Positions 20,253-32,469 of a stretch of 32,481 nucleotides of DNA are shown here, in pieces. Under the pieces are notes generated by a model, which worked only from the letters and a program-made list of their open reading frames with translations, was not told the origin of the DNA and ran no database searches. Every line of letters starts with the position of its first letter. The stretch's first letter is position 1. Source of the DNA: Patescibacteria group bacterium (lineage in GTDB: Bacteria > Patescibacteriota > Minisyncoccia > Phycocordibacterales > JBBUBG01). The position numbers and the translations under genes were made by a program. The stretch is from the NCBI GenBank assembly GCA_040384765.1, contig JAZKIQ010000004.1, forward strand, positions 17,916 through 50,396. The letters are read 5' to 3'.

Positions 20253-20937
20253 TACAAAAAGACCCCCAATCGTCGAGTGTCGTATGGGCTAATCTCTTTT
20301 GTCGGGCGTGACAGATGGCAGAGAAAAGCTCAATGGAGCTCATTTTCGAGTGGGGATCTTGTAGATCCGGCGTAGTAGAGGAATAAGAAGCTTGAAAGTT
20401 CATGGGAACTAAAGCTTCGTTGGATATCGTGGCTGACGATATCCGAAGGTTTGCCAATGGATGGCAGTGAGTTGCTTAGCGTTTTACTCGTGAGAGTGGT
20501 GTGCTAGCTATCACGGACCTTAATAATAAGTCCAATGGATGAGACACAATGATTTTGACAGGATGACCTGTCGAGTCTTGAACTCCAAGAAGAGTTCCGG
20601 GAAGAAATCTCGATGCTCGCTCGAGAACTTTTCTCGGAACTCTTCACTATCTTATTCGTATACTACGAAACGGATGTGAAGGTACTAATAGATCTGAGAG
20701 AAGTGTAGCAGGCAGGAAAAGGAGCGCAACCCCTTGCCTGTGGATAAAGGACATAAAGGTCTTTTGTGTATGTCCTTTATGCATACTGATCTGCCCTACC
20801 TTCTACTGCGTCACTGGCTGAGGAGCTTGATTGCGACATCAGGCAGCAATCAAGAGCCGGACTGAACGAAGGTGAAGGAGGCGGGGTCGCGGCCAATTTT
20901 AGAAAAAATTGAGCTGTGACTGCAGCAGACTCGAAAA
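20253..20937 (+). ncRNA. Candidate large multi-domain structured non-coding RNA, family not recognised
   Basis: No credible ORF; at least 12 helices including nested long-range ones; G-U pairs favour the + strand; one GNRA-capped stem (ACTC-GTGA-GAGT). Confidence 0.6.
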
Positions 20938-24706: not shown

Positions 24707-25594
24707 GTGAACGAAACGCTCAACCGCTACCTCGAATATATAGAGATCGAAAAAGGCCGGGCCGTGCGCACGGTAGAGCTGTACCACCGCTATCTGGGAG
24801 CATTTTTTGCCTTTACGAAGCCTAAAAAGCCTTCGGATATCACCGACGAGCGTGTACGAGAGTTTCGGATTCATCTCAACAGAAAAGGGCTCAATAAGAA
24901 GACGCAGAACTATCACCTGATCGCCCTGCGCTCGTTCCTCAAATGGTGCATCAAAATGCGCCTTCCCTCTCTTGCGCCCGAGCGCATAGAGCTCGCCAAA
25001 ACCCCCGAGCGCGATCTCGACCTTATCACCTTTGAAGAGCTCACCCGCCTACGAGCCGCCCCCTCGGGGAAAGACGAAAAGTCACTTCGCGACCGCGCTA
25101 TCCTTGAGCTGCTCTTTTCGACAGGGCTGCGCGTCTCAGAGCTTGCGAACCTCAACCAGGAGAGTATCGATTTTGCTCGTGACGAGTTTTCGGTGCGGGG
25201 CAAGGGCTCCAAGGTGCGCGTGGTGTTTCTCTCCACTGAGGCGAAAGATGCGGTAAAAGAGTATCTCAAAAGGCGTACCAACATGACGAGCGATGCCCTT
25301 TTTGTAAACTATGGTCCCCTTTCTGGCAAAGAGAACGATTCTCGGCTCACTCCCCGCTCGATCGAGCGGATGATTAGCGGCTATGCGATAAAGGCAGGCA
25401 TTGGCAAAAAGGTGACGCCGCACATCATTCGCCACGTGTTTGCGACCGATCTTCTCTCAAATGGGGCTGATATCCGTGCTGTGCAGCAGATGCTCGGCCA
25501 TTCGAACATCATGACGACCCAGATCTATACCCACATCACCGACAAACACCTTCGCGATGTGCACAAAAACTTTCACGGGAAGAGGAAGAAGTGA
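24707..25594 (+). CDS. XerC/XerD-like tyrosine recombinase
   Basis: RDRAILELLFSTGLRVSEL, VRGKGSKVR, TPHIIRHVFAT, QQMLGHSNIMTTQIYTH (R-K-H-R-H-Y catalytic set). Confidence 0.95.
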   Translation: MNETLNRYLEYIEIEKGRAVRTVELYHRYLGAFFAFTKPKKPSDITDERVREFRIHLNRKGLNKKTQNYHLIALRSFLKWCIKMRLPSLAPERIELAKTPERDLDLITFEELTRLRAAPSGKDEKSLRDRAILELLFSTGLRVSELANLNQESIDFARDEFSVRGKGSKVRVVFLSTEAKDAVKEYLKRRTNMTSDALFVNYGPLSGKENDSRLTPRSIERMISGYAIKAGIGKKVTPHIIRHVFATDLLSNGADIRAVQQMLGHSNIMTTQIYTHITDKHLRDVHKNFHGKRKK

Positions 25595-30881: not shown

Positions 30882-30957
30882 CGTAGTTCTGGTTACATAT
30901 GTAACATGTAAAGATAAGTTTCACGTGAAACATACCTGTTTAGTTACATATGGAACT
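30843..30957. promoter_or_regulatory. Cluster of four parS-like palindromes
   Basis: AGTTTCACGTGAAACA (30917-30932, 15/16 to TGTTTCACGTGAAACA), TGTTACATGTGCAACA (30843-30858), GGTTACATATGTAACA (30891-30906), AGTTACATATGGAACT (30942-30957). Confidence 0.8.
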
Positions 30958-31099: not shown

Positions 31100-31220
31100 A
31101 TGCACTCGGAGGGATTCGGTCACAGCTCGGTTTCTGGTGAAACCGGCCGCGACCCCGCCTCGCGCCATCGCGCTCCGGCTTTCGAACCCTCCTCGAGGCG
31201 CTTAAGGGCGCCTTTCTTGA
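31100..31220 (-). mobile_element. tRNA-Arg-associated structured insert (family B) with duplicated tRNA 3' end
   Basis: 19-bp direct repeat ATGCACTCGGAGGGATTCG at 31100-31118 and 31220-31238; core GTCACAGCTC...GGCCGCGACCCCGCCTC. Mobility is inferred. Confidence 0.7.
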
Positions 31221-31292
31221 TGCACTCGGAGGGATTCGAACCCCCAATAACAGGTTCGAAGCCTGTCGTGATATCCATTTCACTACGAGTGC
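31221..31292 (-). tRNA. tRNA-Arg(TCG)
   Basis: GCACTCG acceptor stem, ACAGG-CTTCGAA-CCTGT anticodon arm, GGTTCGAATCC T-arm. Confidence 0.95.
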
Positions 31293-31360
31293 CCAAATTT
31301 GAGTATAGCAGGGGAGTCCCCGTTTGTCTTATTTTTTTGAAACGGTATACTGTCTCCATT

Positions 31361-31434
31361 GCGGCTATGGTTTAATGGTAGAACAGGTCCTTGCCAAGGA
31401 TCAGATTCGGGTTCGATTCCCGGTAGCCGCACCA
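31361..31434 (+). tRNA. tRNA-Gly(GCC)
   Basis: GCGGCTA acceptor stem, GGTCC-TTGCCAA-GGATC anticodon arm, GGTTCGATTCC T-arm, encoded CCA. Confidence 0.96.
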
Positions 31435-31437
31435 AAA

Positions 31438-31572
31438 TATGGGAATCTCCAGGGTTCGAGTCACAGATAATTTTCTCCTGAAAATTTCTTCGACCCCGCC
31501 TCAGTCGCCTTCGCTCCTTCCGGGCTTGATTGCTGCCTGATGTCGCAATCAAGCCCGGTAGCCGCACCAAAA
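31438..31572 (+). mobile_element. tRNA-Gly-associated structured insert (family B) with duplicated tRNA 3' end
   Basis: 19-bp direct repeat CCCGGTAGCCGCACCAAAA at 31419-31437 and 31554-31572; core GTCACAG...CGACCCCGCCTC. Mobility is inferred. Confidence 0.7.
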
Positions 31573-31652
31573 ACGAGGGTAGAATAGGTAAAAAATTTGG
31601 ACAGGTTATGCAAAAGACGGCATCAAAGAAAGTAAGGTTGACTGTTAACACC

Positions 31653-31682
31653 TGTGGATAAGTTGGGGGATAGAGTGGATAA
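31653..31682. promoter_or_regulatory. Tandem DnaA-box-like sites
   Basis: TGTGGATAA (perfect, 31653-31661), GGGGGATAG, AGTGGATAA (31674-31682). Confidence 0.5.
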
Positions 31683-31762
31683 AGGACGTCCGAAACGAGC
31701 CTGAGCGGAGAGGTAAAAAGAGGCATTTTCCCGAGATACCCTTATTTTACAACGATTGAGAA

Positions 31763-32170
31763 ATGGACAAGCCCGATCACCTTCGTATCGGCCAGATGGG
31801 AGAAGAGCTCGTTTGTCTTTATCTGAGAAGAAGGGGATATCGCATTATTGAGCGAAACTATTTGAGAAAATGGGGAGAGATAGATATCGTGGCAGAGAAG
31901 GAGGGGACTGTTCATTTTGTTGAGGTAAAATCGGTCTCCCGAGAAACCCTTCCAACAGAGGAGATGCTTAGAAGGGGTGAGGGAGGATACAATCCTGCAG
32001 AAAATATGCACCGCTCGAAGCTCGAAAGACAGCGCCGTGTCATAGAGACATACCTTTTAGATCGATTTCGGGACCAAGAGCCATCCTGGCAGGTCGATCT
32101 TGCTTCCGTGTATTTGAGCTTGTCCTTAAGGAAAGCAAAGGTGGATCTCCTCGAAGATATTGACCTATAA
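31763..32170 (+). CDS. yraN: YraN/UPF0102 family PD-(D/E)xK nuclease-like protein
   Basis: GQMGEELVCLYLRRRGYRIIERNY, GEIDIVA, FVEVKS. Confidence 0.93.
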   Translation: MDKPDHLRIGQMGEELVCLYLRRRGYRIIERNYLRKWGEIDIVAEKEGTVHFVEVKSVSRETLPTEEMLRRGEGGYNPAENMHRSKLERQRRVIETYLLDRFRDQEPSWQVDLASVYLSLSLRKAKVDLLEDIDL

Positions 32171-32220
32171 GGTTTCCATAGAGCTTTTTGCGTGCTAAGA
32201 TGTACGGGTTGCTAGAAATA

Positions 32221-32293
32221 CGGGGCATAGTGTAACGGCTAACATTCTCGCTTTGGGAGCGAGCGACTCTGGGTTCGAATCCCAGTGCCCCGA
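32221..32293 (+). tRNA. tRNA-Pro(TGG)
   Basis: CGGGGCA acceptor stem, CTCGC-TTTGGGA-GCGAG anticodon arm, CTGGG-TTCGAAT-CCCAG T-arm. Confidence 0.95.
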
Positions 32294-32296
32294 CTA

Positions 32297-32469
32297 AGTT
32301 GAGTGTAACGAAACGAAGGAGGGGCAAAGGAGCGCCCTGCGGCGCTCCTGCCTGGGATTCGAAGACCGCAGCGATGTTTTGCGAGCACGCAAAACCGCGA
32401 GGGGTGGCCGGCGAGTTTCCTGAGCGACGGCGAAGGAAAACTTGTCGGAGAATCCCAGTGCCCTGGCTA
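32297..32469 (+). mobile_element. tRNA-Pro-associated structured insert (diverged family B) with duplicated tRNA 3' end
   Basis: GAATCCCAGTGCCCTGGCTA (32450-32469) repeats GAATCCCAGTGCCCCGACTA (32277-32296), 18/20; GGGATTCGAAGACCGCAGCG...CGCGAGGGGTGG resembles the Arg insert GGGTTCGAAAGCCGGAGCG...CGCGAGGCGGGG. Confidence 0.6.

What the first reader, a model, noticed from the sequence alone, without database searches (positions are those of the whole stretch)
31100..32469. Family B: short structured inserts behind three tRNA genes, each closed by a duplicate of that tRNA's 3' end
Seen: tRNA-Arg, -Gly and -Pro are each followed by 100-155 bp and then a 19-20 bp copy of their own 3' end, beginning in or just after the T-loop. 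Each insert core starts after a T-arm mimic (GGGTTCGA or GGGATTCGAA), so it sits in the loop of a rebuilt T-arm/acceptor half. The Arg and Gly cores share GTCACAG...CGACCCCGCCTC but in opposite orientation relative to their tRNAs; the Pro copy is diverged. Established: tyrosine integrases duplicate tRNA 3' ends at attL/attR, normally around kb-sized islands with one target each. Inference: a non-autonomous mini-element family that targets the near-symmetric TTCGA T-loop of different tRNAs, mobilised in trans. It could also act as a decoy att site or a tRNA-processing signal. I do not recognise it as a described system.
Basis: partly seen in the sequence, partly recalled or inferred. Interest (0 to 1): 0.85.

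Follow-up and report, generated by a model that had tools for sequence, protein, structure and literature searches.

The report
Hairpin repeat units behind tRNA genes
The three inserts belong to a large, apparently undescribed family of small hairpin-rich DNA repeats, found across the ultra-small Patescibacteria, that settle just behind tRNA genes and carry copies of each tRNA's tail.

Summary
Behind tRNA-Arg, -Gly and -Pro sit 100-155 bp inserts, each closed by a 19-20 nt copy of that tRNA's 3' end.

The inserts share a ~65-nt core: GTCAC, hairpin, CGACCCCGCCTC, hairpin, TCCGGC.
- It has 36 model matches in this 0.82-Mb genome.
- It occurs in 52 of 61 genomes of the order.
- It occurs in Saccharibacteria and Paceibacteria assemblies.

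Fifteen of 43 tRNAs here carry such a unit.

The stems are almost purely Watson-Crick, with no G-U excess, unlike this genome's tRNAs. That points to DNA palindromes rather than a selected RNA.

Units nest in one another, are swapped as cassettes between congeneric genomes, and can carry the inverted arm of a different tRNA.

The genome has no reverse transcriptase, Y1 or TnpB-type transposase, only one Xer-type recombinase.

Best reading: non-autonomous mobile hairpin repeats copied between tRNA loci, anchored on the T-loop and the tRNA end. They are not integrase att sites. The mechanism is inferred.

The parts
31221..31292 (-). tRNA-Arg(tcg), intact. Its last 19 nt plus 1 (31220-31238) form the proximal copy of the repeat.
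31100..31118 (-). Distal direct copy of the tRNA-Arg 3' end (19 of 19 nt), starting in the T-loop. It forms the left arm of the Arg unit.
   Evidence: repeat D4; best match is tRNA-Arg, score 18
31119..31179 (+). R1 core, short form, antisense to tRNA-Arg: GTCAC, hairpin 1, CGACCCCGCCTC, hairpin 2, TCCGGC.
   Evidence: 73.5 bits; fold
31180..31219 (+). Right arm and spacer of the Arg unit. It holds a T-arm-like stretch that pairs with the left arm, then a small G+C hairpin (31196-31213).
31302..31351 (.). Divergent promoter-like sites for tRNA-Arg (31330-31302, -) and tRNA-Gly (31324-31351, +). No terminator-like site was predicted between either tRNA and its insert.
   Evidence: consensus scan only
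31361..31434 (+). tRNA-Gly(gcc), intact, with CCA encoded.
31435..31459 (+). Spacer of the Gly unit, holding a short inverted T-arm piece and a T-arm 5' mimic that ends in TTCGA. The same 19-nt junction occurs behind tRNA-Pro in metagenome locus L039.
31460..31524 (+). R1 core, long form, in the same sense as tRNA-Gly.
   Evidence: 77.3 bits
31525..31553 (+). Hairpin 3 of the long form. The same hairpin follows the non-tRNA copy at 20856-20920.
   Evidence: (inverted repeat I1)
31554..31572 (+). Distal direct copy of the tRNA-Gly 3' end: T-stem 3' strand, acceptor 3' strand, CCA and 3 further nt.
   Evidence: (D1)
32221..32294 (+). tRNA-Pro(tgg), intact.
32329..32363 (+). Spacer hairpin (32330-32347) followed by an inverted copy of the tRNA-Pro T-arm (32352-32363).
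   Evidence: (I8)
32364..32449 (-). Diverged core of the same superfamily, with two hairpins. It is not detected by model R1.
32450..32469 (+). Distal direct copy of the tRNA-Pro 3' end (18 of 20 nt). Further partial copies follow beyond the assembly gap.
   Evidence: (D5)
20856..20920 (-). R1 core, long form, not next to any tRNA.
   Evidence: 78.9 bits

Best explanation
The inserts are copies of a non-autonomous, hairpin-rich dispersed DNA repeat. I call the core R1; there are sister cores. It belongs to the same broad class as REP/BIME elements, MITEs and mitochondrial hairpin elements.

Behind a tRNA gene the mobile unit is a cassette made of:
- a trailer or terminator,
- an inverted copy of a tRNA tail, often split by a small extra hairpin,
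- the core.
The cassette lies between the tRNA's real 3' end and a direct copy of that 3' end that begins in the T-loop.

I propose that cassettes are copied from one tRNA locus to another at the DNA level, by template switching or ectopic recombination. The anchors would be two short sequences shared by nearly all tRNA genes: the T-loop/T-stem and the 3' end with the start of the terminator. Switching back at the T-loop re-copies the target's own tail. That would explain why the gene stays intact and why a direct repeat appears. Inverted arms and hairpin stems would then be kept perfect by palindrome-correcting template switches or by conversion from other copies.

Shown here: the anatomy, the distribution, the DNA-like stems, nesting, cassette turnover and donor-type arms.
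Inferred: the copying mechanism, and whether any enzyme drives it.
For: Family size and spread:
- 36 matches at E <= 1e-3 in this genome. I read 25 as R1 proper and 11 as a sister family.
- 52 of 61 genomes of the order carry it, and 4 of 4 genomes of one genus, with 27-43 copies each.
- 61 of 80 listed pattern hits are real elements, in Saccharibacteria, Paceibacteria and related assemblies.

Link to tRNAs:
- 15 of 43 tRNAs here have arms plus a core. Twelve of these have an R1 core, 11 antisense and 1 sense.
- In the pooled set, of 120 cores, 60 lie downstream and antisense to a tRNA, 6 downstream and sense, 13 upstream and 41 elsewhere.
- The junction falls 18-21 nt from the tRNA end in most cases.

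DNA-like stems:
- Of 1248 stem cells in 104 distinct copies, 1206 are Watson-Crick, 9 G-U type and 12 A-C type.
- In this genome's tRNA stems, 22 of 516 cells are G-U and 3 are A-C.
- The arms turn the tRNA's own G-U pairs into Watson-Crick pairs.

Mobility:
- Copies nest at one fixed site inside other copies in G037.
- Empty tRNA loci are common in syntenic metagenome loci; only 13 of 220 tRNAs there have a tail copy.
- At tRNA-Gly(ccc), genomes 92-94% identical carry different cassettes between an unchanged tRNA end and an unchanged distal copy. One cassette carries the inverted arm of tRNA-Gly(gcc).
- A 161-nt cassette is 98.8% identical behind tRNA-Leu(gag) and tRNA-Leu(tag) of one genome. 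Identity stops at the tRNA 3' end, and the arm matches Leu(tag).
- Different core types occupy the same T-loop position.

Enzymes: no RT, Y1 or TnpB match in this 99.8%-complete genome, and one Xer-type recombinase only.
Against: - No filled and empty pair at strain-level identity was seen, so no insertion event is caught cleanly.
- Enzyme-free template switching is usually rare. It does not by itself explain why the single-stranded core motifs are conserved across a phylum, which suggests recognition by a protein or a function.
- Direct repeats vary from under 10 to over 40 nt, and some come from plain tandem duplication of whole units.
- Long-form copies at non-tRNA sites and the nested copies need a further insertion route that I cannot name.
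- Orientation relative to GC skew and to neighbouring ORFs gave no clear signal.
- The tRNA-like layout, with an extra hairpin exactly at the acceptor/T-stem junction in 19 of 30 units by my eye, is not predicted by a purely mutational model.
Confidence: 0.5

Rival explanations
1. Mini-islands moved by a tyrosine recombinase. The two tRNA-tail copies would be attL and attR. The T-arm would be the core site, with strand exchange in the T-loop. The single Xer-type enzyme or a foreign integrase would act in trans.
For: - Direct repeats of 19-20 nt running from the T-loop to the tRNA 3' end are the classical footprint of tRNA-targeting integrases. This is established knowledge that I recall, not a result of any call.
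- The repeats are present.
- Cassettes between the repeats are exchanged among congeners.
- One XerA/C/D-like gene lies at window 24707-25594.
Against: - At least 15 different tRNA species are occupied in one genome, each with a matching tail.
- The exchanged cassette does not include the tRNA tail, and it can carry the inverted arm of another tRNA. An excised circle would carry the donor tail and make a chimeric tRNA at a new target.
- Inverted copies, non-tRNA copies and nested copies are not explained.
- No integrase other than the Xer type is present.
- Repeat lengths vary from under 10 to over 40 nt.
Confidence: 0.1
2. Ends-only derivatives of IS200/IS605-type elements or REP-like sequences, moved as single-stranded DNA by a Y1 HUH transposase (RAYT-like). 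They would insert 3' of a short motif such as the T-loop TTCG.
For: - The element starts a few bases before a hairpin and, in the long form, ends with a hairpin.
- The base before GTCAC is G in 81 of 116 copies, and tRNA-linked copies follow the reverse-complemented T-loop.
- Nested copies share one insertion point.
- No fixed-length target duplication is seen at non-tRNA sites.
- Y1_Tnp-like ORFs of about 220-260 aa occur in 39 of 61 relatives, including all 3 of the same family.
Against: - This genome has 36 copies and no Y1 match.
- Cross-tabulating searches gives: core and Y1 both present in 36 genomes; core only in 16; Y1 only in 3; neither in 6. Copy number does not track Y1.
- No core was found in 14 Y1 loci totalling 53.9 kb.
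- The flanks of the G037 Y1 gene are not repeated elsewhere.
- There is no clear strand bias against GC skew.
Confidence: 0.15
3. The units are functional RNAs: tRNA-shaped trailers with an acceptor-like stem, one extra arm, a T stem and the conserved core in the T-loop. They would be co-transcribed with the tRNA and handled by tRNA-processing enzymes, acting as regulators, decoys or stabilisers.
For: - In the tRNA's sense the order acceptor-complement, hairpin, T-stem-complement, core, T-stem, acceptor matches tRNA topology.
- The extra hairpin sits exactly at the acceptor/T junction in 19 of 30 units, often with a CTGC loop. This is my count by eye.
- Single-stranded joining motifs are conserved while stems vary.
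- Orientation relative to the tRNA is 60 to 6.
- No terminator is predicted between tRNA-Arg or tRNA-Gly and their inserts.
Against: - G-U pairs are as rare as A-C mismatches, 9 against 12 of 1248 cells, whereas tRNA stems of the same genome show 22 against 3 of 516.
- The arms erase the tRNA's G-U pairs and also pair the discriminator base.
- Most units elsewhere lie behind a terminator.
- 41 of 120 cores are far from tRNAs.
- The same tRNA is empty, or carries different cores, in different relatives.
- No Rfam family matches.
Confidence: 0.15

Closest known systems
REP / BIME elements of proteobacteria (with RAYT transposases)
   Same: Both are short, intergenic, hairpin-forming repeats with tens of copies. 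Both form mosaics with other small motifs and often lie at gene ends. Y1-type genes exist in many relatives.
   Different: This genome has no RAYT or Y1 gene, and there is no linkage to such genes in relatives. The arms are copy-specific and made of local sequence. The elements are strongly tied to the tRNA T-loop, and the core sequence is conserved across a phylum.
attL/attR duplications made by tRNA-targeting tyrosine integrases
   Same: Both show a direct repeat of the tRNA 3' part beginning in the T-loop, with the tRNA gene kept intact.
   Different: The insert is 100-170 bp with no integrase. Many tRNA species are occupied. There is an additional inverted copy. The cassette excludes the tail and can carry another tRNA's arm.
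IS200/IS605-derived palindrome-associated elements (PATE)
   Same: Both have subterminal hairpins, insert next to a short motif and lack a fixed target duplication at non-tRNA sites.
   Different: There is no Y1 or TnpB gene here, no replication-strand bias, and tRNA-tail duplications flank the unit.
Repetitive hairpin-forming elements, double-hairpin elements and G+C clusters of mitochondrial DNA
   Same: Both are small, non-coding hairpin repeats that invade intergenic DNA, occur in tandem or nested, differ between close relatives and have no known enzyme. This rests on passages of PMC2800124 read.
   Different: These are bacterial and phylum-wide, with a conserved non-palindromic core. They target the tRNA T-loop and duplicate the tRNA tail.
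MITEs such as Correia/NEMIS elements
   Same: Both are non-autonomous, about 100 bp long and capable of forming long hairpins in transcripts.
   Different: R1 has no conserved terminal inverted repeats and no fixed-length target duplication. The arms are local sequence, not part of the element.

Membership tests
tRNA-targeting integrase island (att duplication) | Direct repeat of the tRNA 3' part flanking the insert | tested here: met
tRNA-targeting integrase island (att duplication) | A cognate integrase in the element or the genome | tested here: not met
   There is one Phage_integrase match in the whole genome. It scores as XerA/XerC/XerD type.
tRNA-targeting integrase island (att duplication) | The element carries the tRNA tail (attP), so it is tied to one tRNA species | tested here: not met
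   15 tRNA species are occupied. The cassettes exchanged between relatives exclude the tail and can carry a foreign tRNA's inverted arm.
IS200/IS605-derived PATE or REP/RAYT system | Hairpins near the ends, recognised as single-stranded DNA | tested here: inconclusive
   Hairpins 1 and 3 lie near the ends and are perfect Watson-Crick. Recognition by a protein was not testable.
IS200/IS605-derived PATE or REP/RAYT system | Y1 HUH transposase present and associated | tested here: not met
   None in G000. It is present in 39 of 61 relatives, but no core lies in 14 Y1 loci and there is no tracking of copy number.
IS200/IS605-derived PATE or REP/RAYT system | Orientation bias relative to replication | tested here: inconclusive
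   R1 shows no clear relation to local GC skew. The contigs are fragmented.
MITE (DDE transposase type) | Conserved terminal inverted repeats and a target duplication of fixed length | tested here: not met
   The ends GTCAC and TCCGGC are not inverted repeats. Flanking repeats vary from under 10 to over 40 nt, or are absent.
Described structured RNA (Rfam 15) | Match to a curated covariance model | tested here: not met
   Only the four tRNAs match. Nothing in the inserts matches at E <= 10 apart from chance-level hits.
Selected structured RNA in general | G-U pairs tolerated far more than A-C mismatches on the functional strand | tested here: not met
   9 G-U against 12 A-C of 1248 cells. The tRNA control shows 22 against 3 of 516.
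Repetitive hairpin-forming elements (descriptive class) | Short non-coding hairpin repeats, dispersed, nested or tandem, differing between close relatives | tested here: met

The most novel reading that the evidence does not exclude
Each unit would be a tRNA-shaped RNA module. Its acceptor and T stems are written from the neighbouring tRNA, it has one extra arm with a conserved tetraloop, and it presents a phylum-wide conserved core in place of the T-loop. The module would be made from the tRNA's own transcript by tRNA-processing enzymes. It would act as a tRNA-specific decoy or regulator, and it would also be able to copy itself from tRNA gene to tRNA gene.
Probability: 0.12. Interest if true: 0.9.

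Novelty: new variant of a known kind. Interest (0 to 1): 0.62.

Why it matters
Patescibacteria have some of the smallest and most streamlined bacterial genomes. Even so, this one devotes dozens of intergenic sites to a repeat whose core is conserved from Saccharibacteria to Paceibacteria.

If the units spread by using the universal T-arm and tRNA end as anchors, they would be selfish DNA that needs no enzyme of its own and keeps its essential target intact.

Practical consequences:
- The units break assemblies. This window ends in one.
- They mimic integrase att sites, which could mislead island finders.
- They are a ready marker of recent recombination in uncultivated lineages.

If they turn out to be transcribed tRNA mimics, they would open a new class of tRNA-linked RNAs.

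Tried and rejected
Sequencing runs. No RNA holder was listed. The four runs laid were contigs only. They showed no empty allele and no informative joint, so they say nothing on excision or expression.

Viral contigs. Five exact pattern matches were found, but none was confirmed by the profile, so I treat them as chance.

Close relatives of the YraN neighbour gene in metagenome contigs. The best was 57% identical, so no strain-level comparison of this locus was possible.

Orientation against neighbouring ORFs (a crude greedy ORF call with some spurious ORFs) and against GC skew gave no clear pattern for R1.

Retrotransposition models considered: tRNA-primed, or target-primed with variable target duplications. 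I set them aside because there is no reverse transcriptase in this genome. Also, the copies lack added CCA where the gene lacks it, and some extend into the trailer, so they derive from DNA or precursor, not mature tRNA.

Also considered and rejected:
- A degenerate second tRNA gene. Rejected because the inverted arm is the exact complement of the 3' strand, not a copy of the 5' strand.
- Hairpin-opening footprints (P-nucleotide type) and hairpin-capped breaks. Set aside because of the arm lengths.
- A DNA-uptake-sequence or recombinase-site reading of hairpin 1. Set aside because the copy number is low and the hairpin arms vary.

One comparison was too rearranged to read as a simple insertion: G037 against G062 at tRNA-Val(gac).

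Supplementary files of papers were not needed and not opened.

The counts '19 real and 19 chance', '30 of 31' and '19 of 30' are my readings by eye, not program output.

In one search, one of the 15 sister-family copies (a truncated match) was left out.
Full report
**The observation**

The window holds four tRNA genes at its right end (Rfam agrees). tRNA-Arg(tcg), tRNA-Gly(gcc) and tRNA-Pro(tgg) are each followed by an insert and then a copy of their own 3' end:
- Arg: 19 of 19 nt.
- Gly: 19 of 19 nt.
- Pro: 18 of 20 nt.

tRNA-Leu(cag) has nothing of the kind. All three units fold better than shuffled controls as single strands, with z of -2.7, -4.9 and -5.7. Independent contigs of a public run bridge the Arg unit without a difference.

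**It is genome-wide**

The assembly has 822,710 bp in 12 contigs, is 99.8% complete, and has 43 tRNAs. Nine tRNAs have a near-exact copy of their last 16 nt within 500 nt downstream.

With exact words of 9 nt or more, 15 of 43 tRNAs have direct and/or inverted copies of their tail together with a structured core. Twelve of these have the core defined below: 11 antisense to the tRNA and 1 sense, the sense one being the Gly copy of this window. Three carry other cores.

**The core (R1)**

Twenty-four copies align to GTCAC, hairpin 1, CGACCCCGCCTC, hairpin 2, TCCGGC. Ten of the 12 predicted pairs show changes on both sides.

A covariance model finds 45 matches at E <= 1 and 36 at E <= 1e-3 in this genome. 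I read 25 of the 36 as R1 proper and 11 as a sister family.

The sister family sits between perfect, copy-specific inverted repeats. In 13 of the 14 copies tested the repeats are 11-26 bp, whereas the 99th percentile of 3000 random sites is 7 bp.

A long form of R1 adds a third hairpin. It is the form behind tRNA-Gly and at window 20856-20920. The Pro insert is not detected by the model, but it has the same two-hairpin layout between arms and shares a hairpin with the tRNA-Tyr copy.

**Anatomy of a tRNA-linked unit**

Read in the tRNA's sense, the order is:
1. tRNA.
2. Spacer, usually a terminator-like palindrome.
3. Inverted copy of the tRNA tail, ending at the T-loop.
4. Core.
5. Direct copy of the tail, starting in the T-loop.

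This order is seen.

The inverted arm is the exact complement of the 3' strand. It replaces the tRNA's G-U pairs with Watson-Crick pairs and also pairs the discriminator base.

In 19 of the 30 units I inspected, the inverted arm is split exactly between its acceptor and T-stem parts by a small hairpin, often with a CTGC loop. That hairpin is itself a repeat shared between loci and genomes.

In either arm, one side may be long and perfect while the other is short. Direct repeats range from under 10 to over 40 nt, and some reach into the trailer. Some arise from tandem duplication of whole units.

**Distribution**

- The model matches 52 of 61 genomes of the same order, with 1-41 matches per genome.
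- It matches all four genomes of one genus, with 27-43 matches each.
Of the 80 loci listed, 42 were confirmed by a profile and 19 more by eye. Nineteen look like chance matches in G+C-rich genomes.
- The real ones are labelled Saccharibacteria, Paceibacteria/Parcubacteria, Kaiser-, Adler-, Nomura-, Taylor- and Campbellbacteria or 'Patescibacteria group'. Three are labelled Elusimicrobia.
- In that set, 36 of 50 profile hits lie within 300 nt of a tRNA.
- Pooling all the DNA I held, the 120 cores split as: 60 downstream of and antisense to a tRNA, 6 sense, 13 upstream and 41 elsewhere. The pool is not a random sample: half of the loci were fetched around a tRNA cluster.

**DNA or RNA?**

Nothing in Rfam matches.

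In 104 distinct copies the modelled stems hold 1206 Watson-Crick cells, 9 G-U type and 12 A-C type out of 1248. The acceptor and T stems of this genome's 43 tRNAs hold 22 G-U and 3 A-C out of 516. The R1 stems therefore behave like DNA palindromes, or like stems made by copying one arm from the other. They do not behave like helices of a selected RNA.

Between two congeners, one hairpin of an otherwise identical unit is replaced as a whole by another perfect hairpin. That fits conversion from other copies.

In the window, promoter-like sites sit only in front of the two divergent tRNAs, and no terminator is predicted before the Arg and Gly units. Read-through transcripts are therefore likely, but that is not evidence of function.

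**Mobility**

1. In G037, long-form copies lie inside other copies at one fixed point, just after hairpin 1.
2. The cluster tRNA-Arg/Gly, YraN, tRNA-Pro is conserved in 80 metagenome loci. Most have no room for inserts, and only 13 of 220 tRNAs there have a tail copy. The same tRNA carries different core types in different organisms.
3. G037, G062 and G063 are 85-94% identical over a 20-kb stretch. Behind tRNA-Gly(ccc), the tRNA end, the distal tail copy and the downstream flank are the same in all three. The segment between them differs as a block. The G062 block has another core and an inverted arm that matches tRNA-Gly(gcc), not the local tRNA. Behind tRNA-Arg(cct), all three have a core at the same left junction but with different bodies and right arms.
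4. Within G037, 161 nt comprising core, inverted arm and terminator are 98.8% identical behind tRNA-Leu(gag) and tRNA-Leu(tag). Identity ends at the tRNA 3' end, and the arm fits Leu(tag).

So the moving block is spacer plus inverted arm plus core. It does not include the tRNA tail.

**Enzymes**

This genome has no match to RVT_1, Y1_Tnp or the TnpB zinc-ribbon family. A Y1-like protein of a relative finds nothing by tblastn. The only tyrosine recombinase is the XerA/C/D-like gene at 24707-25594.

Y1-like ORFs occur in 39 of 61 relatives. However:
- Sixteen genomes have the core without Y1, and three have Y1 without the core.
- None of 14 Y1 loci holds a core.
- The flanks of one such gene are not repeated.

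**How it most likely works**

Shown: the units are DNA-level repeats that turn over quickly between fixed boundaries, namely the tRNA 3' end and a T-loop position in a tail copy. They can move between tRNA loci while keeping the donor's inverted arm.

Inferred:
- During replication or repair, a nascent strand that has just copied a tRNA gene switches to another tRNA locus that carries a unit. The switch uses the short identity at the tRNA end and terminator start.
- It copies that unit, then switches back at the T-loop/T-stem, which is nearly the same in all tRNAs. It thereby re-copies the target's own tail.
- This gives an intact tRNA, a donor-type cassette and a direct repeat from the T-loop to about the tRNA end. 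It also keeps the orientation seen in the donor.
- Later palindrome-correcting switches or conversions make arms and stems perfect and local.

I put this at about 0.3 on its own, and at 0.5 for the wider statement that these are mobile DNA repeats rather than att sites or an RNA gene.

What it does not explain is the phylum-wide conservation of the single-stranded core motifs and the non-tRNA and nested insertions. Those point to a protein partner that I could not identify.

**Comparison with known systems**

The units work most like REP/BIME elements, and like the hairpin elements of mitochondrial genomes, whose mobility is likewise inferred without a known enzyme (passages of PMC2800124). 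They imitate the footprint of tRNA-targeting integrases without meeting the family's other features (see the membership table).

Six full-text searches found no description of such elements in Patescibacteria. One preprint on bacterial tRNA mimics concerns other RNAs (abstract and outline read). The library searched does not hold most subscription journals, so 'not in print' is limited to it.

**Verdict**

This is a new variant of a known kind of element, of good interest for mobile-DNA and CPR genomics.

Noticed in passing
window 30916-30932: A perfect 14-bp palindrome lies just downstream of tRNA-Leu(cag). It looks like a chromosome-partition (parS-type) site as I recall that consensus (repeat finder I4).
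   Followed up: no
G000:C4:89433-89495, C4:75582-75644, C4:96279-96333, C11:5205-5267 and about 11 more: A sister repeat family with a related first hairpin sits between perfect, copy-specific inverted repeats of 11-26 bp. One arm can overlap the end of the upstream ORF.
   Followed up: partly
G000:C7:1180-1355: tRNA-Ile(gat) is followed, after 70 nt, by a direct copy of its last 38 nt. No R1 core lies between them, so this is a tail duplication without the element.
   Followed up: partly
L120:9015-9151 (G037:C7:369015-369151): A 137-nt insert with inverted ends is present in G037 but absent at the same intergenic site in G062 and G063. It is a clean presence/absence case for another small element.
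   Followed up: no
39 of 61 genomes of the order, e.g. L260:1807-2550 (-): ORFs of about 220-260 aa match the Y1 (IS200-like/RAYT-like) transposase family, with up to 13 per genome. They are absent from this genome and not linked to R1.
   Followed up: partly
G000:C4:8292 and G000:C10:52950 regions: Yet another repeat of about 90 nt, ending in a hairpin, occurs at least twice in the genome. One copy directly abuts an R1 copy.
   Followed up: no
G037:C7:172901-172974 (-): ARAGORN calls a tRNA with anticodon tta (reads a stop codon). It has R1 units beside it. Not checked further.
   Followed up: no
window 31763-32170 and loci L022-L101: The YraN-family gene lies between tRNA-Arg/Gly and tRNA-Pro in this window. 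That synteny is kept in most of the 80 distant metagenome loci fetched.
   Followed up: partly
L159, L165, L183: Real-looking R1 units, one behind tRNA-Asp, occur in assemblies labelled Elusimicrobia. Either the host range is wider or contigs are mis-binned.
   Followed up: no
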